A stretch of DNA of 64,000 bases, taken from a virus. Where the stretch lies: the IMG/VR virus record IMGVR_UViG_3300032397_000006, positions 40,086 to 104,085 of that record; one strand, written 5' to 3'. The translations under genes and the position numbers were made by a program. The notes under the pieces were generated by a model. The model ran no database searches, was not told where the DNA came from, and saw nothing but the letters and a program-made list of their open reading frames with translations. Every line of letters starts with the position of its first letter. Position 1 is the stretch's first letter. Positions 23,631-55,553 of the stretch are shown piece by piece.

Positions 23631-23676
23631 ACCTTCCCTTCAATCTAGTTATCTCACGACGCGATAACTCGCGCAA
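23631..23676 (-). promoter_or_regulatory. Repeated promoter/operator/RBS element, copy 1
   Basis: TTGCGC-N17-GATAAC; palindrome GTTATCgc-N5-gaGATAAC; then TAGATTGAAGGGAAGGT. Confidence 0.8.
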
Positions 23677-23692
23677 GCGGAAACGCCCGCGG

Positions 23693-24115
23693 TCAGGAGA
23701 CCGAGCGCGCCAGATCTTCGACCGCTCGCCGCAAGTCAAACCGATTCAAGTCTTCGTCCAGACTTTCGCGCCCGAGTACGCGCTCAGCGAGAGCTCGCAC
23801 TTTCAAGATGTCGTCACTGAATTCCTCGTTCACACACTCGAGTTTTTCCACCTGATCTTCGAGCTCGCTGATCTCGCCGCGCAAGCGCTCGATCACGTTG
23901 CGTTCACTCACGAGCTCGTCAACCAAGCACTGCGCCAGCTTCGCAAACTGCAGCGCGATAGGCCCCACGTCCCGCGCCACGCCGTTATCGACAACACACA
24001 CGCCTTCACTTTGGAGCACTGAGACGAACGCCCGAAAATCCTCGATCTTCCGGTCAGCCGCTTCCTCGAGTGACAGCGCCTTCGGTCGCGCCTTCGCTTT
24101 TACGTTCCTTGCCAC
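23693..24115 (-). CDS. Coiled-coil hypothetical protein (cassette gene)
   Basis: GTG start after repeat RBS. Confidence 0.65.
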   Translation of the reverse strand: MARNVKAKARPKALSLEEAADRKIEDFRAFVSVLQSEGVCVVDNGVARDVGPIALQFAKLAQCLVDELVSERNVIERLRGEISELEDQVEKLECVNEEFSDDILKVRALAERVLGRESLDEDLNRFDLRRAVEDLARSVS

Positions 24116-24120
24116 GACTC

Positions 24121-24166
24121 ACCTTCCCTTCGATTTAGTTATCGCATGTTCCGATAAGCTATGCAA
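24121..24166 (-). promoter_or_regulatory. Repeated promoter/operator/RBS element, copy 2
   Basis: TTGCATagcttatcggaacatgcGATAACtaaatcgaagggaaggt. Confidence 0.8.
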
Positions 24167-24175
24167 GATCAAAAG

Positions 24176-24499
24176 CTAGTCGCTTGCGGCATCATCGTAC
24201 GCTGCGATTCCGTGCCGATTCAGCACCTCAGCGAACACGCGCGCTCGTCCGAGAGCTCGGCCGTCCGCATTGTCGTAGCCCATGTAAATCGCGTTCTTGC
24301 CCACGCCGTAGCCTTGCGCGTTGAAGATCAGGCCAGACTGCTCACACACCTTTTTGACCGCTTTGATCAGAGCGCGGTCACCCGACACGCATACGTAAGC
24401 ACGACCGCAGCCGGACGCGCGAGCAGCAATGTAGGGCGCGTCATTTGCCTCGCGGATTGCTACGGCCACCTTGCTCTCGAGCTCTGAATTCTTTCCCAT
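24176..24499 (-). CDS. Hypothetical protein (cassette gene)
   Basis: MGKNSELE...GCGRAYV...AFAEVL-like C-terminus (RVFAEVLNRHGI). Confidence 0.65.
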   Translation of the reverse strand: MGKNSELESKVAVAIREANDAPYIAARASGCGRAYVCVSGDRALIKAVKKVCEQSGLIFNAQGYGVGKNAIYMGYDNADGRALGRARVFAEVLNRHGIAAYDDAASD

Positions 24500-24504
24500 G
24501 AAAC

Positions 24505-24550
24505 ACCTACCCTTCAATCTAGTTATCGCACGAGACGATAACAGCGGCAA
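24505..24550 (-). promoter_or_regulatory. Repeated promoter/operator/RBS element, copy 3
   Basis: TTGCCGctgttatcgtctcgtgcGATAACtagattgaagggtaggt. Confidence 0.8.
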
Positions 24551-24582
24551 CGCTTTTCGACCGCTAACGTAGGAGCGCTCGC

Positions 24583-25992
24583 TTAACTCTCGACGCTGTG
24601 TCTGTGAGCGGCGTGCCTCTCGGCTGCCTGCCGGCTGCCGGTCTCTGCGATCACGCTGCCTGCGCGGCGCACTTGCCAGAGCCCGTCCGATCCACGCTGT
24701 ACCGTGTGCTGCCCGTGCGTCGCCACGACGGGCCCTGTAGCGCTCGCTGGATCGCGCACGGGCAAAGGGGGTGGCGTACCGCCAGCCTTGCCCGGAAGGG
24801 GCGGAGGCTTGGCGGCGTCGGCCTGTTTCGGCAACGGCGGAGGCACGCCCGCGGCACGCGTCGGAGGTGTCTCGCGCTTGCGCTGATCCACAGCCGCGAG
24901 CGCTGCCGCTTGCGCCGCAGCACGCTTTGCCTTCGCACCTCGAGGCTTCGCGCCCTTCGCGCCCTGCAACGAGGCCAACAGCTTCGCGTGCTGCGCGAGC
25001 TGCGCGCCTTGCTGCGCGAGCTGCGCCTGTAGCTTGCCCTCCCTGCGCGTCGATTTCGCATGCTCCGCGGTCAGTGCTGCGTGTCCATTCGCTTGCGCTG
25101 CTGCGTGCTCTCGCAATTGCGAGCGTGCCGCTTTCGCTGCTCTCTGATCGCCTGAGCGTTTCGCCTGCACGAGTGCACTGCGCGCGATCTTGTGCTCGCG
25201 CACGAGCGCTTGCGTCGAGGCCTGATGCTGCGCGTGCTGTTGCGCGAGCTGACCGTGCAACGCCTTAAGCTGAACCTGAGTCTGTTTATGGGCTGCGATC
25301 AAATGCTGTTGCGCGATCGCGTGCGCCTGCATTTGTTTCGCATTACGTTTCTTCGACTCTGCGAGCCGTCCCGACGCGGTGCGCTTATGTGCCTGCAGTT
25401 TTTTCGCGAACGCTTTCTGATGCGAAAGCAACGCGCCCGCAGAGATTCGCTTCTGCTGCTCGAGTCTCTTACTGTGTGCGCGAACCGTAAGCTTGAGCTT
25501 TTTCTTGAAGGCCTTCTGATGCGCGAGGAGCTTCTCTGTGTGCTGCTTTTTCTGCTGCTCAAGTTTCTGCTTAGGCGTGAGCTTTTTCGCCTTACTGCGC
25601 GCAGGCACGTGCAACGGCATGCGGGCAAGCTTGCTCCACTTACCGCCAGCTTTACGACCTACCCATTTCTTACCGTCGAAACGAAACTCGTGCCGCTGGC
25701 CGCGCGACTTGACGTGAAAGGTGCTCGCCTTTCCGGAGTGCTCGATCTTGTGCACCATGCCCGCGGCACCCGTCCGCATCGCAACGGCGGTACCTACGCC
25801 TAGTCGTCGAGGAGCGCCCTGCGGCGCTGCGTAGACGTAATTCCAACCACCCTTACCGTCTGCTTTACGCGTAAGGTATTTATGACCAGGCATTTCCTGC
25901 CCGGGCACAGCAGCTTTACGCAAGGGCTCCGCAAAAGACAGCACGTCGAAGTGCGTCACGTCTTGTGCAGTCAACGGAATTACCAGGAGCAT
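24583..25992 (-). CDS. Basic K/H/Q-rich coiled-coil protein with N-terminal GHKY..DGKGGW motif
   Basis: LRKAAVPGQEMPGHKYLTRKADGKGGWNYVY; long AHQK-rich coil; three PPPLP repeats. Confidence 0.8.
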   Translation of the reverse strand: MLLVIPLTAQDVTHFDVLSFAEPLRKAAVPGQEMPGHKYLTRKADGKGGWNYVYAAPQGAPRRLGVGTAVAMRTGAAGMVHKIEHSGKASTFHVKSRGQRHEFRFDGKKWVGRKAGGKWSKLARMPLHVPARSKAKKLTPKQKLEQQKKQHTEKLLAHQKAFKKKLKLTVRAHSKRLEQQKRISAGALLSHQKAFAKKLQAHKRTASGRLAESKKRNAKQMQAHAIAQQHLIAAHKQTQVQLKALHGQLAQQHAQHQASTQALVREHKIARSALVQAKRSGDQRAAKAARSQLREHAAAQANGHAALTAEHAKSTRREGKLQAQLAQQGAQLAQHAKLLASLQGAKGAKPRGAKAKRAAAQAAALAAVDQRKRETPPTRAAGVPPPLPKQADAAKPPPLPGKAGGTPPPLPVRDPASATGPVVATHGQHTVQRGSDGLWQVRRAGSVIAETGSRQAAERHAAHRHSVES

Positions 25993-26513
25993 TATCCGGC
26001 GTCTCGCTTGCGCGTTACCATGATCACCAGGCGCTTCTGTGCAGGCGCGTAGAACTGCTCTGCCTTGATCACCGTACGTAGCGCAGGCGCGCGCTTTACG
26101 TCAGTGCTCTGATTTTTCCGCCAGAACGCGAGAGCTCTGCGCGTGATTTCGCCGCGCACGTCAGGATCAGGCACCATCACGCGCAGCGATTCGATCAAAT
26201 GTCCTCGCCCGAGCGCGAGCCTTTGCTGACCTGCACGTGGCGCGTACTGCACGTTACTGCCTGCGACCAAGCGCTGCACTCGATCGCTCACGGTCGCGTC
26301 AAGGCCGAGCCCGCGCGTGATGTCCGCAACCGTGACAACGTGCCGCGGTTGCGGTGACGAGAAATCTTCGATCTCAGTCTCGAAAAGACGCGAAGGTCCG
26401 ATCTCCGACTGCATCTCACCGAGGCCCATTCCAGCGCGAGCTCGCATCTTGTGCGAGCTCAGAGCGCTACCGAAACCGGGCTCGCTTAGACTGCGTAGCG
26501 GCTCTTTAATCAC
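25992..26513 (-). CDS. Hypothetical (possibly virion) protein
   Basis: Coupled to 24583..25992; C-terminal VIKA motif. Confidence 0.6.
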   Translation of the reverse strand: MIKEPLRSLSEPGFGSALSSHKMRARAGMGLGEMQSEIGPSRLFETEIEDFSSPQPRHVVTVADITRGLGLDATVSDRVQRLVAGSNVQYAPRAGQQRLALGRGHLIESLRVMVPDPDVRGEITRRALAFWRKNQSTDVKRAPALRTVIKAEQFYAPAQKRLVIMVTRKRDAG

Positions 26514-26635
26514 GCAACCTCCAGAAAGTGCCGCCCAGCCCCCACCCTACCGGGTAGCGTGCCACGCTGCTAAGCGCGGCGCCCTATGCTGCGCGATTGG
26601 GGGACGCCGATCGCGCAGCATCACGCCAACAGCGC

Positions 26636-27037
26636 TTACTTCGATCCGTTCACGTCACGGAAGCCATACGCGATCACCTGCACCACTTCGGTGTTCGCTG
26701 CAACGGCGACGGCAAGCGTGACACGGCGTGGCTTTCCAGCTGCGTCGTTCGCGATGCTCAATCCCGTGGCTGCCGCGCCCGTGGCATCCACTTGCACCGC
26801 GGTACCCACGAACAGCTGCCGCTTGCGCGGAGTGCCTGCCGGGTTGACGATTTCGACGTAGCCGGGATCGAAGGGCAGATCCAGCGTACCTCCGACGCCG
26901 CCCGCACCCGTGATGGTCCCTGCGAAGATTTCGCAGGCGTGCTGCATGTAGCCCTGCGCGACCTTGTAATGATCGGTCGTCGGCACATCCGCTTTCGCGG
27001 TGGGAATGAGACTCTGCGCAAACGTAGTTCGTGGCAT
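26636..27037 (-). CDS. Hypothetical (possibly virion) protein
   Basis: RBS AAGGGGAG; beta-rich, Gly/Ala/Thr-rich. Confidence 0.65.
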   Translation of the reverse strand: MPRTTFAQSLIPTAKADVPTTDHYKVAQGYMQHACEIFAGTITGAGGVGGTLDLPFDPGYVEIVNPAGTPRKRQLFVGTAVQVDATGAAATGLSIANDAAGKPRRVTLAVAVAANTEVVQVIAYGFRDVNGSK

Positions 27038-27142
27038 CTGATTTTTCTCCCCTTGGTTTCAGTGAGCCGCGCACTCAGCGCGAGATCCCCAACGCGGGAA
27101 AAGGTATCGCGATCCTGCATAGCGGTCAACGCTGACAAATAG

Positions 27143-28735
27143 TCAGAATAATGGAGCGTCCTCAACAACCTCGCTATCGCCTAGCAGCACAGACTCCCAA
27201 TTTTCGCCCAACACCTCGTCATCATCGTCCGCGTCCGCATCATCGAACGCAAAACCGAACCCACCCAGACGGGACGCCTCGGTCGCGATCCACCACGCCA
27301 TAACGGTGTCATCATGCGATCCAACGCCCTGCAATTTACCGTCGATATAACCGAATTGTCGCGACTCCTGAATCCATATATCGGTCTGCACGATGCTGTA
27401 CTCGTCGCCCCTAGGGATCACGAGCTTACGATTCTCGAGCAGTAGCCGCTGACCAGGCACGCCTCGATCAAGCGGGTATTTGTTCGTCGCAAGCGTCACG
27501 AATTCCTTGATCGGTAAATCCGTTTCACGACGCAGCTCCGAACTGTAGAGCTGCTGCATAGCGTTCGACTCGATCAAAATCAGCGCCGGATCGTAAAGCT
27601 GCGCAGCGAGCTCGATCTCATGCAACTGCGCGCGGAACGGAAGCCCTTTGCTACGCCGAATATCGAGCACGTATTGATTACCCTTACGATCGCGCCCGAT
27701 CACGAAGATCACAAAGTAGTCGGCGCCTACGCTCGCACTGCGTGCGATATCCACGCCGAAATAAACAGTAAGGCCGTGCGCCTGAATCTCCGCCTTCGAC
27801 ATGCGCAAGCGCAAAGTATCGTCAAAGCACGGCGGAAACAGATGCTCAGGAAAGATCGAGACGTCATCAGAGATCGGTTCGCACATAATCTCGCGAGCAA
27901 AGGAAACGCTCCCGATTTCAGCACGCCTTGCTTTCAGCTGCGGGAGCGTCCAGCGATAAGGGAACAGCGCGCGCTCAGTACCATCAGAAGATCGAACGAT
28001 GCCTGGAAATTTCGCGAACACGTAAGAGCGATTCTTACGCAGGTACCCGTAAAGATCATTCGAGCTAAACGGCGTACCTACCACGACCAGCTGCCCGTCA
28101 GGCGGCACCATGTTAGTTATGGCGCTCTTAAAATATTCGATATTCTTTCGCCGTACCGTCTCGCTCCACATATCCTCGTCGTTAATCGGATCGTCGAGCA
28201 CGACGTACTTAGGATGCCGTCCGCGCATGGCTTTACCGTAGCCGGCCACTCGGATACGCGAGCCGTTGGTAAATCGAGCGTCGCTCCTATTCAGACGCAA
28301 ACGGGGATCACTGCGGTGAAAGCCGACGCGCTCAGGTACCATTTTCGCAACGAGCGGAATATCGACCATTCCTTTCAGGTTGTTGCGCCCGTAAAGAATA
28401 ATGTCTAGGAATTCCTGCGCCTGCTCGAGCGTGTTCGAAAAGACGTAGACCTCGCAGCCTGGCTCACGCCATGCACGCCAGATTGGATACGCGTACGAAA
28501 AGAACGCGGATTTTCCGTGGTCCCGAGCTGCGTTCAGTCCGATCCTGTTCTGCGCTGAAACGAGGTCGGACCACGCCACAATATGCGGGCCGATCTCGAG
28601 ATTAAGCACCTCTTTTGAAAACAGGGCTAAATCCGTACGCAGCAAAGCTTCGAATAACTGAGCTCGATCCTTCTCGTCCAGCGACTCGTACAGCTCTGTG
28701 AAATAAGCCTCATCCCGAGCACTCACGGCGAGCAA
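27143..28735 (-). CDS. terL: Terminase large subunit
   Basis: AARDHGKS Walker A, RGRHP..VVLDDP, VVGTP, nuclease GVDIA..D..V, IESN, HDDTVMA; start may be GTG 28726. Confidence 0.92.
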   Translation of the reverse strand: MLAVSARDEAYFTELYESLDEKDRAQLFEALLRTDLALFSKEVLNLEIGPHIVAWSDLVSAQNRIGLNAARDHGKSAFFSYAYPIWRAWREPGCEVYVFSNTLEQAQEFLDIILYGRNNLKGMVDIPLVAKMVPERVGFHRSDPRLRLNRSDARFTNGSRIRVAGYGKAMRGRHPKYVVLDDPINDEDMWSETVRRKNIEYFKSAITNMVPPDGQLVVVGTPFSSNDLYGYLRKNRSYVFAKFPGIVRSSDGTERALFPYRWTLPQLKARRAEIGSVSFAREIMCEPISDDVSIFPEHLFPPCFDDTLRLRMSKAEIQAHGLTVYFGVDIARSASVGADYFVIFVIGRDRKGNQYVLDIRRSKGLPFRAQLHEIELAAQLYDPALILIESNAMQQLYSSELRRETDLPIKEFVTLATNKYPLDRGVPGQRLLLENRKLVIPRGDEYSIVQTDIWIQESRQFGYIDGKLQGVGSHDDTVMAWWIATEASRLGGFGFAFDDADADDDDEVLGENWESVLLGDSEVVEDAPLF

Positions 28736-28959
28736 TCCCCTCTGCGAAATCTAACCGCGCAAATGTCAGAGCAAACTTCAAAGTGCCCAATCCACCCGGG
28801 TAGCGAGAACGCACGCCACGGCAATCGCAGCGGCACGTCGACCTCAAGGCAGATAGAAGCACCGCAGCAGTCGCAACGATACAAGATCAGCTTGCCTATT
28901 TCACGGTGCACCACACCGCGAACGTAACACGTAAGGGCTCCTCGCAAGTTCGAGGACAT
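28723..28959 (-). CDS. Small Cys-rich protein
   Basis: YRCDCCG...VCSDIC. Confidence 0.4.
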   Translation of the reverse strand: MSSNLRGALTCYVRGVVHREIGKLILYRCDCCGASICLEVDVPLRLPWRAFSLPGWIGHFEVCSDICAVRFRRGDCSP

Positions 28960-29072
28960 GCGAGGAGCGCGGACACGGCAGCAAGCAATAAAGCTTACCA
29001 GCGGCGGGACCGCTGATTTACCGCTATGTCTACGCTGGGCAGTCTAGCCCGGGACTACGCCAGTACAGAAAC

Positions 29073-29802: not shown

Positions 29803-30171
29803 TCAGCCTAGCCGCTTCCCGCCGTGCCGATACGATCGCGTCGCATTAAACGCGATCTTCTCAGCGAGCACAGGAGCAAGGATCAAACCTCGCGAAACGG
29901 CTGTGCTTGCTACGCGTAGCAGGACGTCCGCCAATTCAGAGCGCACCCCCTCAGGACCGCGATCAGACGACAACCGATCTGCAAATCCGAGCTCGCGATA
30001 CGCCTCGAGCGCTTCGCTACACTCGGAATGCAACAGCGCCACCTGATCTCCGAACGTAAGCGGCTGATCGTACCATCCGCGCGCACGAGCTTCCTCGTAG
30101 ACAAGGATCGCAAATCGATCGAACGCTTCTCCGAATTCAAGTGCCGCTGCTAGCGTGGCCTCCGAAATCAC
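29803..30171 (-). CDS. MazG-like NTP pyrophosphohydrolase
   Basis: ALLHSECSEALEAYR...SELADVLLR...EKIAFNATRSYRHGGK. Confidence 0.85.
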   Translation of the reverse strand: MISEATLAAALEFGEAFDRFAILVYEEARARGWYDQPLTFGDQVALLHSECSEALEAYRELGFADRLSSDRGPEGVRSELADVLLRVASTAVSRGLILAPVLAEKIAFNATRSYRHGGKRLG

Positions 30172-30803
30172 GCAGACGGGCTGCCGTGGAAGTCGACGAA
30201 GCCCCCCTCAAATTTCAGACGAAGCCCACCACCTTCGATCAACTCGACAGCGGCACCTTCGGCACGCAGCCTGTGCCCGCCAAGGGCCATCATGAATCCG
30301 GGGACCGCGATCGACGTCGCAATCGACGCCTTCGCGGGCTTTTCGACACGCACCTTAGGTGCGGCAGCCTTAGCCGGGGACGCGGGAGACGCCTCGATTT
30401 TCGCGGGAGCCTCGGCTGTTCGCAACTTCGGCGGACGTCCGCGACGCTTCGGTGCGGCAGCCGCAAGCTCGGAATGATGCCCGTTGCCGTTGCTGTGCCC
30501 GTTGCCGTTAGAAGCTGCGGCAGCCTTCGGCGGACGTCCGCGACGCTTCGGCGCGACAGCCGCAGGCGCAGCGGACGCTGCAGACGCAGCCGCCTTCGGA
30601 GGCCTGCCCCGACGCTTCGGCGCCGCGGCCCCATCGTCCGAAACAGCGGGTAGCTTTTGCTGCGCCGCAAGGCCCAGCGCAAACATACGCACCTGCACTG
30701 CGGTCGGCGTGCGACCAAGAGTGCTTGCGATCTGCTCATAAGACTGTCCGGCCGCGAGCCCTTCGCGCACCGCAGCATCATCCGTTGAATTCCACTCAGC
30801 CAT
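30168..30803 (-). CDS. HTH plus three AT-hook DNA-binding protein
   Basis: WNSTDD..GQSYEQIASTLGRTPTAV; PKRRGRPPK x3. Confidence 0.8.
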   Translation of the reverse strand: MAEWNSTDDAAVREGLAAGQSYEQIASTLGRTPTAVQVRMFALGLAAQQKLPAVSDDGAAAPKRRGRPPKAAASAASAAPAAVAPKRRGRPPKAAAASNGNGHSNGNGHHSELAAAAPKRRGRPPKLRTAEAPAKIEASPASPAKAAAPKVRVEKPAKASIATSIAVPGFMMALGGHRLRAEGAAVELIEGGGLRLKFEGGFVDFHGSPSA

Positions 30804-30950: not shown

Positions 30951-31328
30951 CTAGTGCAACTGCGAATTCGTAGGTAGCGCAAACAAAGCCTCCCGCAGCC
31001 CAGGGGGGAGATCTGAAAGTAACGCGGGCTGTGAGTCGAGCATGCGAACGACCTCCGCCAACGTATCGGCCTCGTCGACATCCGCGCAGTTTTCGACCAG
31101 TCGCGCAAACGCTACCGCTCTAACAAGGCCAACGACGACAGCCAGATAAGGCGCACGCGCTCCAATTGCCACGTGCACGTGTCCGTGCGCGCACACCGAA
31201 AGATCAACAGTGAGGGTCTCAAGTTCCACACTCACGTAAATCGGCACTCTCGACATGCAGGGCGCAAGCTGCTGCAGCAACGCAGGCACACCCAGCGAAT
31301 CCCAGAAAATAGATCTGCCCTTACTCAC
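30951..31328 (-). CDS. Hypothetical protein
   Basis: Overlaps the MTase stop. Confidence 0.5.
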   Translation of the reverse strand: MSKGRSIFWDSLGVPALLQQLAPCMSRVPIYVSVELETLTVDLSVCAHGHVHVAIGARAPYLAVVVGLVRAVAFARLVENCADVDEADTLAEVVRMLDSQPALLSDLPPGLREALFALPTNSQLH

Positions 31329-32106
31329 GCAGGCACCCGGAGCGCGGCTTGGTCACGAATGGTGTTTTCGAGGCGCGAGGCAACACGCTGTGCGGACGCG
31401 CGTGGTCAATCGTCAATTGCGCAAGTGCTGCCACCTCAGGATCAATCTCGTAACCAAGGCCTGCACGTCCGAGCTCTGCCGCAGCTAATAACGTCGAACC
31501 GCCTCCCGCAAAGGGATCAAGGATCAGTTCCCCGGGTTGCGTGAAGTCAGCGATCAGCTGGCGCATCAGAGACGCGGGCTTCTGCGTGGAGTGCCGCCGA
31601 TAGCGACGCTCGGCCGCGTCTCGGTAGACGCCAGCCATGCCGCGGCAGTTCCAGATACTGCGCTCTTGCCCTGCCCATACGGCGACGATCGCCTCTGCTG
31701 CTGCCGCGGGCCCGTCCCCTGAAAATTTAGGCGCTACGTTCGGCTTTACCCAAACCATCGTAGTTCGGCGCCGAGCTCCCGCAGCCAGTAGCAACTTTTG
31801 CCAGGCGGCAACTCCCTCGAGAGCGCTAAACACGAGGATCCACCCACGGCTCAGTCGCACAAACTCATGCGCGCACGCAAACCGCTCAGCCTCCGTAATT
31901 GCCGCAAACGGCATAGCCGGCTTAACGATTACGCCTCCATTGTAAGATCGCCTGTTCCCCGGAGCGTGCACGAACTCCTCGTAAGGCGGATCAGTGATCA
32001 CGTGATTCACGCTCTTGTCCGCAAGCTGCGTGAGCCCGCGGGCAGGATCGAAACACGACAGCGGGTGCACGATGCTATTCACAACCCGAGCACCTGATAC
32101 TGCCAC
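31321..32106 (-). CDS. N4/N6 DNA methyltransferase (beta class)
   Basis: VITDPPY, HSTQKP, ILDPFAGGGST, GYEID. Confidence 0.9.
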   Translation of the reverse strand: MAVSGARVVNSIVHPLSCFDPARGLTQLADKSVNHVITDPPYEEFVHAPGNRRSYNGGVIVKPAMPFAAITEAERFACAHEFVRLSRGWILVFSALEGVAAWQKLLLAAGARRRTTMVWVKPNVAPKFSGDGPAAAAEAIVAVWAGQERSIWNCRGMAGVYRDAAERRYRRHSTQKPASLMRQLIADFTQPGELILDPFAGGGSTLLAAAELGRAGLGYEIDPEVAALAQLTIDHARPHSVLPRASKTPFVTKPRSGCLRE

Positions 32107-48978: not shown

Positions 48979-49303
48979 CCCGCTAGCGCATTTCTCTTTT
49001 CTGCTTTCTCCTGATCCGGAAACCGAAGGTTTCTCCGTGGTTTTTTTTGAGCGCGAGCGCAAGCGAGCTCTCTGCTCAAAAAAAACTTCTTTAAGCGGGG
49101 ATTTATTCCCGCTTAAAGACTGAGCCAGATCGAGTCTGATCAAGATCCTAAGGTCCTTAGTTCCGGTTTCCCTAGAAGCTCACGAAGTGAACTTCAAACG
49201 AGTCCCGAACTGAACCTTAGGAAAAAAAAGCAAAACGAGAAATGCACTAGCCGGGTGCCCGCGCTTTTCGCTATTGAACTTGGTTCAATAAGGAACGAAA
49301 AGC
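48979..49303. other. Multi-hairpin non-coding element (candidate replication origin or structured RNA)
   Basis: Nested inverted repeats, including perfect 13-bp (49040-52/49074-86) and 12-bp (49088-99/49108-19) stems and an outer stem 48979-96/49237-55; AT-richer than its surroundings. Confidence 0.65.
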
Positions 49304-49400
49304 CCAACGATATCAGCAGCTTAGGCTACTGAACGCAGTTCCCACGAACCTTACTCTGTTTGACCAGACTTATTACAGCCTCGCCCGGTGAGTTACCGTG

Positions 49401-50999: not shown

Positions 51000-51235
51000 G
51001 ACACCACCGCAATTCGGCAGAGCTCAACCAGCTGTGCTTCGGCCGCGAGCTCCGCCACCACAGCAGCGTGATCTTCACAGCGCACCCAGCAGTCCTTATC
51101 TGCAACCCAGACCAACCTGCTAGCGCTGAACTCAACCCCCACGCAACCGACCAGCACGCGGTCAGCTCGCAATTCAGAGACAGTCCAGTAACCGCCGCAA
51201 CGCACCGCGTCTCCCACCGCTATTTTCTTTTCCAT
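50996..51235 (-). CDS. Small hypothetical protein (cassette gene)
   Basis: MEKKIAVGDAV; follows repeat RBS. Confidence 0.6.
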   Translation of the reverse strand: MEKKIAVGDAVRCGGYWTVSELRADRVLVGCVGVEFSASRLVWVADKDCWVRCEDHAAVVAELAAEAQLVELCRIAVVS

Positions 51236-51240
51236 CGCAC

Positions 51241-51285
51241 ACCTTCCCTTCATTTCCAGATTATCATACGCCGCGATAACTGCAA
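51241..51285 (-). promoter_or_regulatory. Repeated promoter/operator/RBS element, copy 4
   Basis: TTGCAGttatcgcggcgtatgaTAATCTggaaatgaagggaaggt. Confidence 0.75.
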
Positions 51286-51286
51286 G

Positions 51287-51610
51287 CTAGCCGTGCGCCG
51301 CCCCGTGATTTTTCCCGCCGCACGCGCACTCGCACACGTGACCAGTGGCGCCCATGCAGCGCCCGTCGCATTTTTTGTCTGCCACCACTTTGCCGAACAC
51401 GGGCTTGAGCCTCGCCGATCCACCGCAGCCGCACGGATATTCGAGCTCGAATACGTTGGTGCCCATCGGCGGAGAATAGAAAAGGGAGCTGCCGCTCACG
51501 AACTTCCCGCACCACGCACCGCGGTAAAAAACAGTGTTTTTCTCGCGCTCAGCCAGCACACTGAATCGCTTTTTGCAGCGGAGGCACTTCCCGTTGTAAC
51601 GCTTTTCCAT
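51287..51610 (-). CDS. Cys-rich Zn-binding protein (cassette gene)
   Basis: CLRC...KCDGRCMGATGHVCECACGGKNHG. Confidence 0.7.
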   Translation of the reverse strand: MEKRYNGKCLRCKKRFSVLAEREKNTVFYRGAWCGKFVSGSSLFYSPPMGTNVFELEYPCGCGGSARLKPVFGKVVADKKCDGRCMGATGHVCECACGGKNHGAAHG

Positions 51611-51615
51611 CACAC

Positions 51616-51662
51616 ACCTGCCCTTCACTCAGAAGCTTATCGCGTTACGCGATAACACGCAA
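51616..51662 (-). promoter_or_regulatory. Repeated promoter/operator/RBS element, copy 5
   Basis: TTGCGTgttatcgcgtaacgcgaTAAGCTtctgagtgaagggcaggt. Confidence 0.8.
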
Positions 51663-51674
51663 GCACAAAGCCTC

Positions 51675-52175
51675 GTGATACCGTCACACGTGGCCTACGA
51701 CTCCGAACGTCCGACCATTCCGATCGCCGTGAGGCGTGAGGTGCGCCTCGCCCGGGCAAAGGACGCGCTAGCGGTACTCGGCACCTCTGGCGCGCTGATC
51801 GGGTCTGCGTGGGGCCTCGCGTGGTCCGCGATTGACCATTTCGCGACGGACGCTGAGGTCGCGACGGCGACCTCGACACACGACACGAGCGCGCAGGCCC
51901 ATTTACGCCTGCGCAATCGCATCGATGACCTCGAGTCCACGACGCGAGCTCAGCACGCGGCCTTGCTCGCTGCGCAAGATCAGCTGCTCGCACTCTGGCG
52001 ATGGCAAGTCGGATACGCAGCGGCTGACCGCGAGGACGATCACCGACTGCGCGCAGCTGCAGCATCTTACTATCGCGAGATTTTCGATCGGCTCGTCCGC
52101 GAAGGGGTGCCTCCGGAGCAAGCGTTTCGCGATAGCCTGACAGAGCGCTGGTCAGATCGGCCGCGCCTACGATAG
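51675..52175 (+). CDS. Membrane protein with coiled coil
   Basis: TM ALAVLGTSGALIGSAWGLAWSAI; coupled to the next + strand ORF. Confidence 0.6.
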   Translation: MIPSHVAYDSERPTIPIAVRREVRLARAKDALAVLGTSGALIGSAWGLAWSAIDHFATDAEVATATSTHDTSAQAHLRLRNRIDDLESTTRAQHAALLAAQDQLLALWRWQVGYAAADREDDHRLRAAAASYYREIFDRLVREGVPPEQAFRDSLTERWSDRPRLR

Positions 52176-52185
52176 GAGCTCCCCT

Positions 52186-52860
52186 GTGCTAGTTCTCGCT
52201 CCATTACGCGACACTGAGGGCAAGCGCGACGTAACCGGCGCATTCCTGCCTGAGGCTCGAGCGCTCGCCGATCGCCATGGCGGGACTCTGCGGCAGATCG
52301 AAAACACGGTGCCCTTCACCGCACGTCGTGCGCTGTCGCTGCGTGAGATCAATCGGTACGTACAAGAGCGCGGTGCGCTCGACGCATTTGCCATGTGCTG
52401 TCACGGATGGCCGCAGGGCGTGCAGCTCGGATTCAGGATCGAGGACGCGGGACTACTCGCGCGAGCTCTCGCGCAAAAGCGCAGCCTGCGCACCGAGCCG
52501 TTCGCGGTGGGGCTGCTCTGCTGCGATACGGCGCGCGACGCGGACGCGGATCGAGCTGACGATCTCGCGGATGGGCCCGGGGGCATCGGCGGGTTTGCGG
52601 ACACGTTGTGCGAGGCGATCGGGAATCTCGGATTCCACGCACGCGTGACAGCGCACGCAACGCTCGGCCACACGACCTCGAATCCACACGTGCGCGTATT
52701 CGACTCGGCCGATCGGACACCGGGAGGCGTCTGGATCGTGCCTCCGCGCTCGCCGCGGTGGGTGCGCTGGACTCGCGCGCTACGCGATACGGATTTGCGT
52801 CTGCGTGTGCCCTTCATGCAGCAGGACGCGATCGAGCGCGAGCTAGACGCCATCGCCTAG
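52186..52860 (+). CDS. DUF4347/caspase-hemoglobinase-like protein (putative Cys peptidase)
   Basis: RBS AGGAG; CHGWPQGVQLG...LLCCDTA...GFADTL...VTAH. Confidence 0.55.
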   Translation: MLVLAPLRDTEGKRDVTGAFLPEARALADRHGGTLRQIENTVPFTARRALSLREINRYVQERGALDAFAMCCHGWPQGVQLGFRIEDAGLLARALAQKRSLRTEPFAVGLLCCDTARDADADRADDLADGPGGIGGFADTLCEAIGNLGFHARVTAHATLGHTTSNPHVRVFDSADRTPGGVWIVPPRSPRWVRWTRALRDTDLRLRVPFMQQDAIERELDAIA

Positions 52861-53250
52861 GTAGTCGTAAATCTCAAGCGGCACTTTCGAGCGCTCTCGA
52901 AACGCCTGCAGCGACGCTCGGAATTCCTTGGTCCACTCCGGGCTGAACGAGCTGTGCCGAGTGATGCTGCTGCCGTCGCCGTTGGCCTCTAGCGCGCCCG
53001 CGATAAAGTCAGGGTGCCCCCACCCAGCGATCACCACTACGCTGTGCCCAGGCTCGTAACTTGAGGCCACGAAGCCCTCACGCGAGCGCTTGCGTGGCCT
53101 CCGGTAGCTCACGTGCAGGGCCTCTTTATATTGCGCGTAAGGGCCTTTCTCGACCGAGACATCGTTTGCCTCGACCGAGGTCCAGCCGAACATGCTGGAT
53201 CTGTAAACGGTCGCCTTCGCCAACTCGAGCACTTTGATTTTTTCTCCCAT
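52843..53250 (-). CDS. Hypothetical protein (cassette gene)
   Basis: RBS GGGGAG; YAQYK.AL...RPRKR, GWGHP. Confidence 0.65.
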   Translation of the reverse strand: MGEKIKVLELAKATVYRSSMFGWTSVEANDVSVEKGPYAQYKEALHVSYRRPRKRSREGFVASSYEPGHSVVVIAGWGHPDFIAGALEANGDGSSITRHSSFSPEWTKEFRASLQAFRERSKVPLEIYDYLGDGV

Positions 53251-53281
53251 GGCACTCCCCTAATCTGCTCGCCGCGCGAGC

Positions 53282-53473
53282 TCAACCCATTGCGGTGATC
53301 ACCAGAAAAGTTGCGAGGTCTGCGGGCTTGGTTTTCCCGATCTCGCTCGCGGCCAACTTCCGCACGATCGGAGCGTTGTGCTCCGAGGCTGCCCACGCGC
53401 GGATCGAGTTGCTCTCGATTGCCGCAAGAACCGCCGCTACGTACGCATCTAGTTTTTTCTCCGAGACCTTCAT
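53282..53473 (-). CDS. Small hypothetical protein (cassette gene)
   Basis: MKVSEKKLDAY after GGAGGT. Confidence 0.6.
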   Translation of the reverse strand: MKVSEKKLDAYVAAVLAAIESNSIRAWAASEHNAPIVRKLAASEIGKTKPADLATFLVITAMG

Positions 53474-53480
53474 GACTTCA

Positions 53481-53521
53481 ACCTCCGATCTAGTTATCGC
53501 ACGTCGCGATAACTCATGCAA
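53481..53521 (-). promoter_or_regulatory. Repeated promoter/operator/RBS element, copy 6
   Basis: TTGCATgagttatcgcgacgtgcGATAACtagatcggaggt; perfect GTTATCGC-N5-GCGATAAC. Confidence 0.85.
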
Positions 53522-53528
53522 CACGAAA

Positions 53529-53768
53529 TCAGCAGCCCTCGAAAAAGATGCTCAGGTCCAGTTCGGGCAGCGCAGGCTCCTCGAATACCGGGCCTGCGAA
53601 CGGCTCGACCACGGGCACCTCGGTGTAGCTGCCGTACGCGCCCTCCACGAAGCTGGTTACGACGCAGAAGCCCAGCGGTCTCTCTGCCGAGCGGGAGCGC
53701 GCTCCCGCGCACACGGTCACACGCACGGTCCCTTTTACGTCCTCGTAGCTCAGGATATCTTCGTACAC
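53529..53768 (-). CDS. Small acidic protein (cassette gene)
   Basis: GTG start after repeat RBS. Confidence 0.55.
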   Translation of the reverse strand: MYEDILSYEDVKGTVRVTVCAGARSRSAERPLGFCVVTSFVEGAYGSYTEVPVVEPFAGPVFEEPALPELDLSIFFEGC

Positions 53769-53773
53769 AAAAC

Positions 53774-53817
53774 ACCTTCCCTTCGATCTAGTTATCGCAC
53801 TTCGCGATAACTTGCAA
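53774..53817 (-). promoter_or_regulatory. Repeated promoter/operator/RBS element, copy 7
   Basis: TTGCAAgttatcgcgaagtgcgataactagatcgaagggaaggt. Confidence 0.85.
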
Positions 53818-53821
53818 TCCC

Positions 53822-54088
53822 TCATTCGCCTGGATGGCGGTAGTCGATCGCCATCACGAAGGGAGCAGCCTCCCCGCGAGCAGCGGCCTCGCTTTTGTGC
53901 GCCTTCACGAAAGCTTGCGCGTCTTTTTTGGCACGGAACAGCACTTGCTCGCCTGCGGCGTACACAAACCGCTTTTCCGGTACATCGCAGATTTTCGAAG
54001 TCACTCCGTTACAAACCGAAACAAGCTCAGTCGCAGGGATCACCTGTTCAAACGAGCGCACACAAACCACGATTGCCTTTGCCATCAC
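53822..54088 (-). CDS. Small hypothetical protein (cassette gene)
   Basis: Follows repeat RBS. Confidence 0.6.
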   Translation of the reverse strand: MMAKAIVVCVRSFEQVIPATELVSVCNGVTSKICDVPEKRFVYAAGEQVLFRAKKDAQAFVKAHKSEAAARGEAAPFVMAIDYRHPGE

Positions 54089-54091
54089 AAC

Positions 54092-54137
54092 ACCTTCCCT
54101 TCGATCTAGTTATCGCATATCTCGATAAGCCGCGCAC
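54092..54137 (-). promoter_or_regulatory. Repeated promoter/operator/RBS element, copy 8
   Basis: GTGCGCggcttatcgagatatgcGATAACtagatcgaagggaaggt. Confidence 0.8.
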
Positions 54138-54143
54138 CTGAAA

Positions 54144-54611
54144 TCAACCGAGTGAGGCGATTACCTCGAGTTGCCGCGGCGAGGGCGCTTTGCCTGACCT
54201 GATCTGCCCCGCTACCGATTCCGCGAACATGCCAGGAAATCCTGGGCGCGCTGACATGCCGTCAAGCCTCTCGAGCAGCGATGCGAACCGCTCGCGCATC
54301 GCTGCCGCCTTGGCTGCCTTCCGGGCCTTCCTGAGCTCGCGTTCGTGTTTCTTCTGCCAGTCCTCGACTCGCTTCTGCATGCCTGCACCGCCCGCGCTCA
54401 GGGCGCAGTCGCACCCCACCTTGAAGCGAGCTCCACACGCACCCTGCAGCTGCGCGGCATACATGATCGAGGCGCCGCAGTAGTCGCACGATCCACCAGG
54501 CTTGATCGGCTCACCAGGCGCCGCCTGAAACTTGTGCTCGCTCACACCGAGAAATCTGTACGGGGCCTTGCCTAGCCCCGCCTTTTCGAACTTGTGCACC
54601 ATTTCGTCCAT
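54144..54611 (-). CDS. Zn-binding hypothetical protein (cassette gene)
   Basis: GLGKAPY...CDYCG...FKVGCDC. Confidence 0.7.
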   Translation of the reverse strand: MDEMVHKFEKAGLGKAPYRFLGVSEHKFQAAPGEPIKPGGSCDYCGASIMYAAQLQGACGARFKVGCDCALSAGGAGMQKRVEDWQKKHERELRKARKAAKAAAMRERFASLLERLDGMSARPGFPGMFAESVAGQIRSGKAPSPRQLEVIASLG

Positions 54612-54618
54612 CTCGCTA

Positions 54619-54664
54619 CCCGTCCCTTCGATCTAGTTATCGCATGTCGCGATAAGGCTTGCAC
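54619..54664 (-). promoter_or_regulatory. Repeated promoter/operator/RBS element, copy 9
   Basis: GTGCAAgccttatcgcgacatgcGATAACtagatcgaagggacggg. Confidence 0.8.
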
Positions 54665-54670
54665 GCGAAA

Positions 54671-54940
54671 TCAGCCCACGACGACGATTTCGATGGCGCG
54701 TGTCGGGTTTCCGTCCAGCAAACGAAGGACGTTGGCCTGCAGTCTGTTAGGGTGCCGCGCCCACAACGTCTTACGCTTGCCCGCTTTGTAGCCGTTCGTG
54801 AATTCGAGCGTAACGGCCACGTTGTGGCAGTAGTCCGCGCCTAGCTCTTTAATCTCGGTCACTTTGGCCGAGGCGTTTTTAGCGATGTCCAGGGCTTTGC
54901 AGCCCCTGGAAATTTTGACTTTTGCTCCGACTGTAATCAT
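54671..54940 (-). CDS. Small SH3-like hypothetical protein
   Basis: MITVGAKVKI...; ATG overlaps the upstream stop. Confidence 0.6.
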   Translation of the reverse strand: MITVGAKVKISRGCKALDIAKNASAKVTEIKELGADYCHNVAVTLEFTNGYKAGKRKTLWARHPNRLQANVLRLLDGNPTRAIEIVVVG

Positions 54941-55260
54941 ACGCCCCCCGCCTCTTTCTCGAGCTTCGCCGCGCAGCGTCCCGCCCACTCGCCCGCGGCA
55001 TGCTGATCGTCCTCGTCGAGAGCTGCATCCCAGCACGCTACGGCGATCTCCCACTCTTGCTCTGCGGAGTAGGGCGAGAACACCTCGAGCACGCGGTACG
55101 CGCTCAGCACGCGGATCCAAGGGCGCACCACGCGCCCGACTTCTGCCTCACTCAGGCGACACTGCACCTCGCTCTCGGTACCCTCGAGCAGACCCGAGAC
55201 GTACAACGCTTTGACTCGCACGAACGGGTCAACCCCCGCAGCTGGCTTTTTCGCTTCCAT
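54937..55260 (-). CDS. Hypothetical protein
   Basis: Coupled ORF. Confidence 0.55.
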   Translation of the reverse strand: MEAKKPAAGVDPFVRVKALYVSGLLEGTESEVQCRLSEAEVGRVVRPWIRVLSAYRVLEVFSPYSAEQEWEIAVACWDAALDEDDQHAAGEWAGRCAAKLEKEAGGV

Positions 55261-55263
55261 GAC

Positions 55264-55503
55264 CTACACCGCCTTTTCGAACTTGGGCGCAGTGCCCGAC
55301 GCAGCGCTTGCTTGAGCGTTTTTGATCGCGTCGTGACGTGCTGCCTTCGGAGTCGGGCCCCAACCGATCGCCACCGAGGTCCCGTGGTTGCTCACTTCTG
55401 CTACCCAGGCATACGCGGGATTGCGCCCGTGAAATTCTGCCGCTTTGCTGGCGCGCACGCCCACGCGCCCGGTTACGTTGTTTGAGAATCCCTTCGCCAT
55501 CAC
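55264..55503 (-). CDS. Small hypothetical protein (cassette gene)
   Basis: Follows repeat RBS. Confidence 0.6.
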   Translation of the reverse strand: MMAKGFSNNVTGRVGVRASKAAEFHGRNPAYAWVAEVSNHGTSVAIGWGPTPKAARHDAIKNAQASAASGTAPKFEKAV

Positions 55504-55506
55504 AAC

Positions 55507-55553
55507 ACCTTCCCTTCACTCAAGAGGTTATCGGAGAACGCGATAACTGTCAA
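55507..55553 (-). promoter_or_regulatory. Repeated promoter/operator/RBS element, copy 10
   Basis: TTGACAgttatcgcgttctccgaTAACCTcttgagtgaagggaaggt: consensus -35, 17-bp spacer, TAnnnT -10. Confidence 0.85.

What the first reader, a model, noticed from the sequence alone, without database searches (positions are those of the whole stretch)
23631..55553. Ten-copy promoter-operator-RBS cassette in front of small genes in two clusters
Seen: a ~45-bp element, (T/G)TGnnn-[GTTATCGC-N5-GCGATAAC]-TAGATCGAAGGGAAGGTG-start, at 23631, 24121, 24505, 51241, 51616, 53481, 53774, 54092, 54619 and 55507, all on the minus strand. Weaker copies lie at 17698, 20980 and 22730. The 8-5-8 palindrome fills the -35/-10 spacer and overlaps the -10 (copy 10 is TTGACA-17-TAACCT). 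Established: T4-type phages have repeated early promoter stem-loop cassettes that promote gene shuffling. Inference: an early regulon under one repressor, where [element + gene] units are exchanged by recombination between repeats.
Basis: partly seen in the sequence, partly recalled or inferred. Interest (0 to 1): 0.8.

Follow-up and report, generated by a model that had tools for sequence, protein, structure and literature searches.

The report
Repeated early promoter-operator-RBS gene cassettes
An uncultured 104-kb phage puts the same ~55-base promoter, palindrome and ribosome-site module in front of at least 13 small unknown genes, and a close natural variant shows genes gained, lost and re-headed exactly at these modules, much like the known shuffling cassettes of T4-type phages.

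Summary
All ten listed copies and the three weak ones are present. The whole 104,085-bp phage genome has 13 strong and about 6 degenerate copies, all on the gene strand, in three clusters rather than two.

Each copy reads: TTGnnn, the 19-bp dyad TTATCGC-N5-GCGATAA, a linker, GAAGGGAAGGTG, 4-5 nt, then the start codon. The dyad behaves as a DNA site rather than an RNA hairpin: arm changes are one-sided and folding is no better than shuffles. Its right arm coincides with the predicted -10.

All strong copies lie in three hypervariable regions full of genes with no Pfam match. These regions also hold a phage sigma factor and a DNA methylase.

One metagenomic variant (92-96% identical) lacks one unit, carries a new one, and has chimeric cassettes, with breakpoints at cassette edges.

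Best reading: host-type early promoters sharing one operator, which also serve as portable homology for gene shuffling. Early timing and the repressor are inferred; three weak candidate DNA-binding proteins are named.

The closest known system is the PeSL cassettes of T4-type phages. This is a new variant of that kind. This scan has noted similar palindrome-promoter cassettes in other uncultured phages.

The parts
23623..23676 (-). Cassette I (spacing class 2): TTGCGC, 3 nt, dyad TTATCGCGTCGTGAGATAA, linker ctagatt, GAAGGGAAGGTG, 4 nt, GTG. Heads an 85-aa gene with no Pfam match.
   Evidence: no Pfam family
24113..24166 (-). Cassette J (class 2), heading a 140-aa gene with no convincing Pfam match.
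   Evidence: only one sub-threshold Pfam hit
24497..24550 (-). Cassette K (class 2), heading a 107-aa gene with no Pfam match.
51233..51285 (-). Cassette L (class 1): TTGCAG directly followed by the dyad, 9-nt linker. Heads a 79-aa gene with no Pfam match, followed by a DUF3560 gene.
51608..51662 (-). Cassette M (class 1, perfect dyad TTATCGCGTAACGCGATAA), heading a 107-aa Cys-rich gene with no Pfam match.
53471..53521 (-). Cassette N (class 2, perfect dyad). The leader is replaced by an ordinary GGAGGT Shine-Dalgarno. Heads a 63-aa gene with no Pfam match.
53766..53817 (-). Cassette O (hybrid: class-1 spacing to the -35, class-2 linker), heading a 79-aa gene with no Pfam match. In variant L058 the same gene carries a class-1 linker.
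54083..54137 (-). Cassette P (class 2), heading an 87-aa gene with no Pfam match. In L058 the orthologous gene (95.7% nt identity) has a different, chimeric cassette.
54609..54664 (-). Cassette Q (class 2), heading a 155-aa Cys-rich gene with no Pfam match. The cassette, its gene and the preceding gene R3 are absent from L058.
55498..55553 (-). Cassette R (class 1): TTGACA-17-TAACCT, heading genes R1-R2-R3. Homology with L058 starts exactly at its -35.
17674..17726 (-). Degenerate copy F: TTGACA, right arm GCGATAA intact, left arm decayed (TTACCCT), its own Shine-Dalgarno.
20956..21006 (-). Degenerate copy G: right arm intact, left arm TTATAAT. A further decayed remnant lies near window 21068.
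22710..22760 (-). Degenerate copy H: TTGACG, 1 nt, TTATCGT-N5-GTAGTAA, in class-1 geometry.
18572..19069 (-). Phage ECF-type sigma factor gene, inside the cassette-driven region. It is the likely driver of the later gene classes.
   Evidence: Pfam Sigma70_r2 4.4e-07 and Sigma70_r4_2 1.2e-09; phrog_1740 2.3e-15
30168..30803 (-). Candidate DNA-binding protein P0001: N-terminal GcrA/Myb-like HTH (a lead only) followed by three PKRRGRPPK AT-hook-like repeats.
16049..16720 (-). Candidate DNA-binding protein P0002: DUF6283 followed by two weak HTH motifs.
49088..49119 (-). Strong intrinsic terminator (12-bp stem followed by a T run) that closes the third cassette region.

Best explanation
The element is a composite, portable expression cassette of about 55 bp (60-66 bp where the homology extends back to the upstream gene's stop codon). 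In order it holds a host-type promoter (-35 TTGnnn), a 19-bp dyad TTATCGC-N5-GCGATAA that fills the promoter spacer and overlaps the -10, a roughly 20-nt leader with a fixed strong Shine-Dalgarno block GAAGGGAAGGTG, and the start codon with an A-rich second and third codon.

Thirteen strong and about six decayed copies head small unknown genes in three hyperplastic regions of a lytic-looking phage whose major capsid protein resembles that of SPO1. Those genes are most likely early host-takeover or anti-defence genes.

The -10 is read at a constant 17 bp from the -35. In one spacing class it is TAAnnT. In the other it is TGnGATAAC, an extended -10.

The dyad acts at the DNA level as the binding site of a dimeric regulator. 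That regulator is most likely a phage repressor that occludes the -10 and shuts the whole set off together after the early period, when the phage's own sigma factor takes over.

Independently of this, the near-identical cassettes provide short homology for the phage's RecA-like and SbcCD-like recombination proteins. As a result [cassette + gene] units are deleted, inserted and re-headed at the cassettes.

Shown here: the repeat family, its geometry, its DNA-level conservation pattern, its restriction to variable regions, and one natural variant with breakpoints at cassette edges. Inferred: promoter activity, early timing, and the identity and sign of the regulator.
For: The repeat is far above chance: 9 hits against 0.00 expected and 7 against 0.02.

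Every strong copy sits in a short gap directly upstream of a co-oriented ORF, with the start codon 20-27 nt from the dyad. The leader never occurs in an intergenic position without the dyad.

There are two spacing classes: gap 0-1 with a 9-10-nt linker, and gap 3 with a 7-nt linker. The -35-to-SD distance stays at 28-30 nt (27 in hybrid copy O), and a -10-like hexamer falls at 17 bp in both classes. In the class with the poorer hexamer, the base before GCGATAAC is T in 7 of 7 copies, giving TGn.

Arm changes are one-sided (8) and never compensated (0) at the variable pairs. RNA folds are no better than shuffles, z -1.6 to +1.9. There is no Rfam family and no T-run terminator.

Decayed copies D, F and G keep a perfect right arm and lose the left arm, so the right arm has its own function, probably as the -10.

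All 13 strong copies lie in 24% of the genome, where 1 of 57 ORFs is conserved in four relatives, against 52 of 74 elsewhere. In relatives G002 and G004 the genes flanking the third array are about 1 kb apart, against about 6 kb here.

No cassette-headed gene has a Pfam hit above threshold. These regions hold a sigma factor and an MT-A70 methylase. RecA-like and SbcCD-like genes are present.

Variant L058 lacks 821 bp (the end of R2, R3, cassette Q and gene Q), has a new cassette and gene upstream of cassette R, and carries chimeric cassettes on orthologous genes. Breakpoints fall at the -35 of R and at the edge of palindrome P. A footprint of cassette Q's SD and start lies inside the 3' end of R1.

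Precedents for both functions are PeSLs (PMC2839356, PMC4122927) and SPBRE/MrpR (PMC10516654).
Against: A generic sigma-70 consensus scan does not call any of the cassettes. The -35 is only TTGnnn in most copies, and GTG in two.

The host is unknown, so promoter rules are assumed. There are no transcription data.

No regulator was identified. The three candidates rest on sub-threshold HTH hits and a low-confidence model with pLDDT 51.

The shuffling evidence rests on one 1.4-kb variant contig. The left breakpoint of the 821-bp difference lies at a gene end rather than inside a cassette of this genome.

The four ~100-kb relatives have neither this dyad nor any comparably over-represented palindrome. 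Conservation of the regulatory logic therefore cannot be tested.
Confidence: 0.55

Rival explanations
1. The cassettes are not host-read early promoters. Instead they are read by the phage's own ECF-type sigma factor as a middle class, and the conserved TTGCAnG and GCGATAAC are that sigma's -35 and -10 elements.
For: A phage sigma with regions 2 and 4 is encoded at window 18572-19069. The cassette hexamers are too poor for the generic sigma-70 scan. GCGATAAC is strongly conserved.
Against: The sigma gene itself lies inside a cassette-driven region, so something host-read must come first. The cassettes are absent from the replication and structural modules where a phage sigma would be expected to act. 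Three copies have a perfect TTGACA. The typical ECF -35 (AAC) and -10 (CGT) signatures are missing; that point rests on my own knowledge.
Confidence: 0.15
2. The dyad binds an activator or a host factor rather than a phage repressor. One option is a MerR-like protein acting on the promoter spacer. Another is a host global regulator that the phage uses to sense cell state.
For: The dyad lies inside the spacer, as in MerR-type promoters (own knowledge). Under one reading of the -10, half of the copies have a 19-bp spacer. Candidate protein Z gives local fold matches to MerR-like winged-helix domains (RacA, BldC, MtaN), but at E about 0.1 and on a poor model. The relatives lack the dyad, so a lineage-specific partner is needed either way.
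Against: The spacer is not uniformly 19-20 bp, and the dyad is off-centre toward the -10. A 17-bp reading exists for both classes, so no distortion is needed. No host is known, so a host regulon could not be searched.
Confidence: 0.12
3. The palindrome works as a hairpin. It could act in RNA as an attenuator, processing site or stabiliser of read-through transcripts, like the stem-loop of PeSLs. It could also act as a DNA cruciform.
For: It is a 7-8-bp inverted repeat with a 5-nt loop between tandem genes, and read-through from the upstream cassettes would transcribe it. In PeSLs the stem-loop is a terminator (PMC2839356).
Against: There are no compensatory changes: 8 one-sided against 0 two-sided at the variable pairs. 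In copy P the hairpin is not in the minimum-energy fold, and z-scores against shuffles are -1.6 to +1.9. No U tract follows, and the terminator scan does not call it. It lies downstream of the -35, not upstream of the promoter.
Confidence: 0.08
4. The conserved part that matters most is the leader. GAAGGGAAGGTG plus the first codons would be a translational operator or enhancer, like T4 RegA targets or the start-associated sequences of Cluster K mycobacteriophages, and the dyad would be secondary.
For: Twelve bases are conserved where 5-6 would be enough for a Shine-Dalgarno. Conservation runs into codons 2-3, which read M-(E/A/G)-K. The SAS/ESAS precedent has the same layout of an inverted repeat followed by a start-linked motif (PMC3203893).
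Against: Copy N keeps a perfect dyad with a different, ordinary SD. The uniformity can equally be explained by gene conversion among cassettes, which is seen directly in L058. This reading is compatible with the main explanation rather than exclusive of it.
Confidence: 0.1

Closest known systems
PeSL (promoter-early stem-loop) cassettes of T4-type phages (Arbiol et al. 2010, PMC2839356; Comeau et al. 2014, PMC4122927)
   Same: Both are short repeated regulatory cassettes with a host-type early promoter and a Shine-Dalgarno. Both are concentrated in hyperplastic regions next to genes of unknown function. Closely related phages differ by indels and replacements whose junctions lie in the cassettes and leave chimeric cassettes. 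No dedicated recombinase is involved, only the phage's general recombination genes.
   Different: Here the inverted repeat lies inside the promoter (spacer and -10), not upstream of it. It has no terminator features and behaves as a protein-binding dyad. There is no AT-rich UP region. The phage is not T4-like: its capsid protein is SPO1-like, it has its own sigma factor, and its GC content is 59%. Mini-circles were not tested.
SPBRE repeated element and its master repressor MrpR in Bacillus phage SPbeta (PMC10516654)
   Same: One conserved motif is repeated in about ten phage promoter regions, mostly in front of genes of unknown function. It was predicted in silico as an operator long before its binding protein was found.
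   Different: SPbeta is temperate and its repressor maintains lysogeny. Here no integrase was found and all genes lie on one strand. The SPBRE is a 15-bp motif unrelated in sequence to this dyad. No binding protein has been identified here.
Start-associated sequences (SAS) and extended SAS of Cluster K mycobacteriophages (Pope et al. 2011, PMC3203893)
   Same: A conserved motif containing the Shine-Dalgarno lies a few bases upstream of the start codon of 11-19 non-structural genes, all in one orientation, and is preceded by inverted repeats. The function is unknown.
   Different: The sequences are unrelated. ESAS repeats have 17-bp arms, a variable spacer and occur in only half of the sites. 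Here the arms are 7-8 bp with a fixed 5-nt spacer, and the dyad is embedded in a promoter-like context.
Host-takeover module of phage SPO1 (Stewart et al. 1998, from my own knowledge; the module is mentioned in PMC6873191)
   Same: In a phage with a related capsid and its own sigma factors, many small early genes are packed behind repeated strong host-type promoters and strong ribosome sites.
   Different: The SPO1 early promoters carry no shared dyad operator. The SPO1 module lies in the terminal redundancy, whereas here the cassettes lie in three internal regions of the record.
Integron gene cassettes (attC sites; from my own knowledge)
   Same: Both are arrays of small co-oriented unknown genes separated by imperfect palindromes, with gain and loss of whole units.
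   Different: No integrase was found. The dyad is 19-21 bp rather than 57-141 bp and does not fit the attC core sites. Each unit here carries its own promoter, whereas integron cassettes are promoterless.

Membership tests
PeSL cassettes (T4-type phages) | Sigma-70-like early promoter in each cassette | tested here: inconclusive
   TTGnnn lies 17 bp from TAAnnT or TGnGATAAC in all 13 copies. The generic consensus scan calls none of them. There are no transcription data and the host is unknown.
PeSL cassettes (T4-type phages) | Stable stem-loop upstream of the promoter that terminates upstream transcription | tested here: not met
   The inverted repeat lies between the -35 and the leader. It has no T run, is not called as a terminator, and its folding is no better than shuffles.
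PeSL cassettes (T4-type phages) | [quoted passage not shown] | tested here: not met
   The -35 is preceded within 0-12 nt by the stop codon of the previous gene. The only shared upstream sequence is TGATTTCGnG.
PeSL cassettes (T4-type phages) | Concentration in hyperplastic regions next to genes of unknown function | tested here: met
   All 13 strong copies lie in three regions covering 24% of the genome, where 1 of 57 ORFs is conserved in relatives. No cassette-headed gene has a Pfam hit above threshold.
PeSL cassettes (T4-type phages) | Indels and replacements between close relatives with junctions in the cassettes and chimeric cassettes | tested here: met
   L058 compared with this genome shows an 821-bp block absent, a new unit present, a break at the -35 of cassette R and at the edge of palindrome P, and chimeric O/R-type cassettes. 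This is one variant only.
PeSL cassettes (T4-type phages) | Formation of cassette mini-circles during infection | not testable with these tools
   This needs inverse PCR on infected cells.
Single-repressor operator regulon (SPBRE/MrpR type) | One conserved motif repeated in many phage promoter regions | tested here: met
   The 19-bp dyad occurs in 13 strong and about 6 weak promoter-like sites.
Single-repressor operator regulon (SPBRE/MrpR type) | A cognate DNA-binding protein encoded by the phage | tested here: inconclusive
   There are three weak candidates, P0001, P0002 and P0003. None reaches a curated threshold, and DNA binding cannot be computed here.
Single-repressor operator regulon (SPBRE/MrpR type) | Temperate life style, with the repressor maintaining lysogeny | tested here: not met
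   No integrase or CI-like repressor appeared among 99 ORFs scanned with Pfam. Minus-strand ORFs cover 94% of the genome, so there is no divergent control region.
SAS/ESAS of Cluster K mycobacteriophages | 13-bp motif GGGATAGGAGCCC lying 3-8 bp before the start, with 17-bp inverted repeats in half of the sites | tested here: not met
   The layout is analogous, with a 12-mer 4-5 nt before the start and a dyad upstream. The sequence, arm length and spacing are different.
Integron gene cassettes | Tyrosine integrase and attC sites of 57-141 bp with GTTRRRY core sites | tested here: not met
   No integrase was found in the Pfam scans listed above. The dyad is 19-21 bp, and GTTATCG does not fit GTTRRRY.
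Intrinsic terminators | GC-rich hairpin followed by a U tract | tested here: not met
   None of the cassettes is called by the terminator scan. True terminators are found at window 49119-49088 and 29017-28997.

The most novel reading that the evidence does not exclude
The right half of the operator is itself the -10 element (GCGATAAC), and the left half is its mirror image. A single phage protein would then recognise the same 8 bp as the host sigma factor and compete with it at about 14 promoters at once. In addition, the roughly 55-bp promoter-operator-RBS module would work as an integrase-free gene-cassette system, through which a lytic phage lineage trades ready-to-express anti-host genes.
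Probability: 0.2. Interest if true: 0.65.

Novelty: new variant of a known kind. Interest (0 to 1): 0.45.

Why it matters
If the reading holds, one short DNA module explains two things in this phage lineage: how about 14 transcription units of unknown early genes are switched together, and how such genes are gained, lost and re-headed.

It extends the PeSL idea, so far described for T4-type phages, to an unrelated high-GC phage whose capsid protein resembles that of SPO1. Here the repeat is an operator inside the promoter rather than a terminator upstream of it.

In practice the cassette is a marker for picking out early host-takeover and anti-defence candidates among the unknown genes. The dyad is a ready probe for fishing out the regulator.

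This scan has reported comparable palindrome-promoter cassettes in several other uncultured phages, so the design may be widespread.

Tried and rejected
**Searches for related DNA**
- A megablast of the array against GenBank phages found nothing.
- Scans of IMG/VR with the cassette pattern found nothing.
- An exact-dyad scan of IMG/VR gave 11 single sites in unrelated contigs of other GC content. I judged these to be chance.
- The GTDB genome scan gave three single low-GC hits, also chance.
- In the metagenome scan only L058 and L060 were real. L054 is a bacterial sugar-metabolism contig, and L055-57, L059 and L061-63 are low-GC chance matches.
- L060 is the same phage at 99.3% identity and tells nothing about shuffling.

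**Relatives**
- The four ~100-kb relatives (TerL 58-65% identical) lack the dyad and the leader, and have no comparably over-represented palindrome. They could not be used to test conservation.

**Tools**
The contigs carrying the 67-79% identical homologues of protein Z could therefore not be fetched.
- IMG/VR holds no Z relative.

**Candidate regulator Z**
- The structure model of Z was poor, with pLDDT 51.
- Foldseek gave only non-significant local hits to MerR-like domains.
- PDB sequence and profile searches gave only E 0.4-0.5 to PefI.
- A homodimer prediction for Z returned no answer.

**Other ideas dropped**
- The Caulobacter-type promoter consensus: the right arm matches GCtANAWC at 7 of 8 positions (PMC8144410), but the full -35/-10 pattern fits only 2 copies. 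An alphaproteobacterial host stays a guess.
- The k-mer GGTAAGGGCGG is a coding repeat (PDGKGGW) and is not regulatory.
- Integron, terminator and Rfam readings were rejected; see the membership tests.


Full report
**Observation**

The palindrome GTTATCGC-N5-GCGATAAC with up to 2 mismatches occurs 9 times in the window, against 0.00 in 100 dinucleotide-preserving shuffles. The 18-mer leader occurs 7 times against 0.02 expected, always on the minus strand.

The window is bases 40086-104085 of a 104,085-bp virus record. A scan of the whole record found all ten listed copies. It also found the three weak ones (window 17699, 20981, 22731), three further strong copies upstream of the window (genome 33066, 34280, 34972) and degenerate copies at genome 28861, 35417 and 37324.

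There are therefore 13 strong and about 6 weak copies, in three clusters rather than two. In the 13 strong copies TTATC and GATAA are invariant. The leader GAAGGGNAGGTG never occurs in an intergenic position without the palindrome.

**Anatomy**

Read on the minus strand, each strong copy has the following parts in order:
- the stop codon of the previous gene, 0-12 nt upstream;
- TTGnnn, which is TTGACA in three copies and GTG in two;
- a gap of 0-1 or 3 nt;
- the 19-bp dyad;
- a linker of 9-10 or 7 nt;
- GAAGGGAAGGTG;
- 4-5 nt;
- ATG or GTG, usually followed by codons for (E/A/G)-K.

There are two spacing classes:
- Class 1 (copies A, B, C, L, M, R): gap 0-1 and a linker of the type ctctggagt.
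- Class 2 (copies I, J, K, N, P, Q): gap 3 and the linker ctagatc.
- Copy O is a hybrid of the two.

The distance from the -35 to the SD block stays at 28-30 nt in both classes (27 in hybrid copy O). A -10-like hexamer falls exactly 17 bp from the -35 in both. It is TAAnnT in class 1 and GATAAC in class 2.

In class 2 the hexamer is always preceded by TGn, which fits an extended -10; T is present in 7 of 7 copies, counting hybrid copy O, which reads GATAAC. This internal consistency is the main argument that these are promoters.

The argument is not proof. The generic sigma-70 scan calls none of the copies, because the -10 hexamers match fewer than 4 of 6 positions.

The right arm GCGATAAC matches the Caulobacter RpoD -10 consensus GCtANAWC at 7 of 8 positions (PMC8144410). 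The full Caulobacter pattern fits only two copies, so the host remains unknown.

**DNA site or RNA hairpin**

Several results point to a DNA-level site:
- At the two variable arm pairs there are 8 one-sided changes and none compensated.
- Folded as RNA, six cassettes are no more stable than shuffles (z -1.6 to +1.9). In copy P the hairpin is not part of the best fold.
- No U tract follows the repeat, and the terminator scan ignores these sites while finding true terminators at 49119-49088 and 29017-28997.
- No Rfam family matches.
- The decayed copies D, F and G keep a perfect right arm and have lost the left one.

So the right arm has a function of its own, best explained as the -10. The left arm adds the dyad symmetry that a dimeric DNA-binding protein would need.

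**Genomic context**

This is a phage:
- It encodes family A DNA polymerase, terminase, RecA-like and SbcCD-like proteins and baseplate J, plus primase and a DnaB-like helicase.
- Its major capsid protein is 33-35% identical to those of SPO1-like Bacillus phages.
- Minus-strand ORFs cover 94% of the genome.
- No integrase or CI-type repressor appeared among 99 ORFs scanned with Pfam, so it looks lytic.

Four ~100-kb relatives from IMG/VR (TerL 58-65% identical) share the structural and replication genes. They share almost nothing in three regions: genome 31828-37381, 54040-66077 and 88623-95722. In those regions 1 of 57 ORFs has a hit, against 52 of 74 elsewhere.

All 13 strong cassettes lie in these three regions, which make up 24% of the genome. 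In relatives G002 and G004 the two conserved genes that flank the third array are about 1 kb apart. Here they are about 6 kb apart, and the space between them holds 7 cassettes and some 17 small genes.

No cassette-headed gene has a Pfam hit above threshold. The regions also hold:
- an ECF-type sigma factor;
- an MT-A70 DNA methylase;
- a MazZ-like diphosphohydrolase next to an HD-domain protein;

This gene content fits an early host-takeover class. It parallels phage SPO1, where host-read early promoters express the phage sigma (from my own knowledge).

**Comparative evidence for shuffling**

The relatives lack the dyad, the leader and any comparably over-represented palindrome. The cassette pattern is absent from IMG/VR and from GTDB genomes apart from chance single sites.

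The metagenome scan gave two real relatives. L060 is 99.3% identical to genome 63127-67238 and is uninformative. L058 is a 1,435-bp contig with four cassettes.

L058 matches genome 93825-94213 at 95.7% identity and genome 95035-95643 at 92.5%. The 821 bp between these blocks are missing in L058: the end of gene R2, gene R3, cassette Q, gene Q and the 5' part of cassette P. Upstream of cassette R, L058 carries a cassette and a Cys-rich gene that this genome lacks.

Homology starts exactly at the -35 of cassette R and at the 5' edge of palindrome P. The orthologous genes O and P carry different cassettes in the two phages. In L058 both have an O-type -35 and dyad joined to an R-type linker. That is what crossovers within cassettes would produce.

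A footprint of cassette Q's SD and the first codons of gene Q lies inside the 3' end of gene R1. These features match the behaviour described for PeSLs, namely chimeric cassettes and crossovers between the SD and the -10 (PMC2839356). The evidence rests on a single short variant.

**Candidate regulators**

None is established. There are three candidates:

- P0003 (genome 28317-28838, 173 aa). It forms its own small transcription unit inside the head module. Its promoter has class-1 cassette geometry and a dyad with two mismatches, which would fit autoregulation. Its secondary structure has a winged-helix-like order. Its recognition region is invariant in three environmental homologues that are 67-79% identical. 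Sequence and fold matches are below significance: PefI at E 0.4-0.5, and local matches to MerR-like domains at E about 0.1 on a model with pLDDT 51.
- P0001 (window 30168-30803). It has a GcrA/Myb-like N-terminus, which is a lead only, and three AT-hook-like repeats.
- P0002 (window 16049-16720). It has DUF6283 and two weak HTH motifs.

**Comparison with known systems**

Functionally the closest system is the PeSL cassettes of T4-type phages. The element is not a member of that family. The stem-loop-as-terminator feature and the AT-rich upstream region were tested and not met, and the phage is unrelated to T4.

As a repeated operator it resembles SPBRE/MrpR of SPbeta (PMC10516654). The layout of a dyad followed by a start-linked motif resembles the ESAS and SAS of Cluster K mycobacteriophages (PMC3203893). 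The packing of small early genes behind repeated strong promoters resembles the SPO1 host-takeover module. The integron analogy fails on the integrase and on attC.

This scan has already noted similar palindrome-promoter cassettes in other uncultured phages.

**Verdict**

The shuffling inference is supported by one natural variant. The assignment as promoters is well supported by geometry but not proven. Early timing and a single repressor remain inference. I class this as a new variant of a known kind, of moderate interest.

Noticed in passing
window 18572-19069 (-): A phage-encoded ECF-type sigma factor (regions 2 and 4). A zinc-ribbon ORF lies just upstream at 19086-19334 and an unknown 213-aa ORF just downstream. 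Its target promoters were not found.
   Followed up: partly
window 30168-30803 (-): A 211-aa protein with a GcrA/Myb-like N-terminal HTH (Atlas lead only) and three PKRRGRPPK AT-hook-like repeats. Together with two N6_N4 DNA methylases (window 31321-32106 and genome 30886-31812), this hints at an alphaproteobacterial-style GcrA and methylase pairing.
   Followed up: partly
window 21865-22596 (-): An MT-A70 family DNA methyltransferase inside the second cassette region. The phage therefore carries three DNA methylases in all.
   Followed up: no
L064:11743-12869 (genome 31828-32954, -): A MazZ-like dATP/dGTP diphosphohydrolase (PF18909, 2.3e-29) lies next to an HD-domain protein, directly downstream of cassette A. 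This pair resembles part of the 2-aminoadenine (Z-genome) gene set, but no PurZ was seen among the ORFs scanned.
   Followed up: no
L064:4619-4776 (genome 24704-24861): An imperfect inverted repeat of about 22 bp, with arms about 30 nt apart, lies upstream of the major capsid gene. Its arms contain the cassette half-sites TTATCGC and GCGATAA.
   Followed up: no
window 49088-49400: A strong terminator (12-bp stem followed by a T run) is followed by a 257-bp gene-free stretch at the end of the third array. It could be a module boundary, an origin or a genome end.
   Followed up: no
L030-L035 (G001); L042-L053 (G002, G004): The relatives have their own repeated upstream motifs. G001 has AATCGTGTAAG about 10 times in front of genes. 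G002 and G004 have AAGGATAATG(A/G) several times. These may be lineage-specific promoter or start signals.
   Followed up: partly
window 55262-55310 and L058:725-800: The 3' end of gene R1 is homologous to the SD, start and first codons of gene Q. The match is longer in L058 than here. This looks like a recombination scar that carried cassette sequence into a coding region.
   Followed up: yes
window ~21040-21075 (-): A decayed cassette remnant (right arm GCGATAA followed by a ggctctcgagtgg linker) lies in the 214-bp gap upstream of copy G.
   Followed up: no
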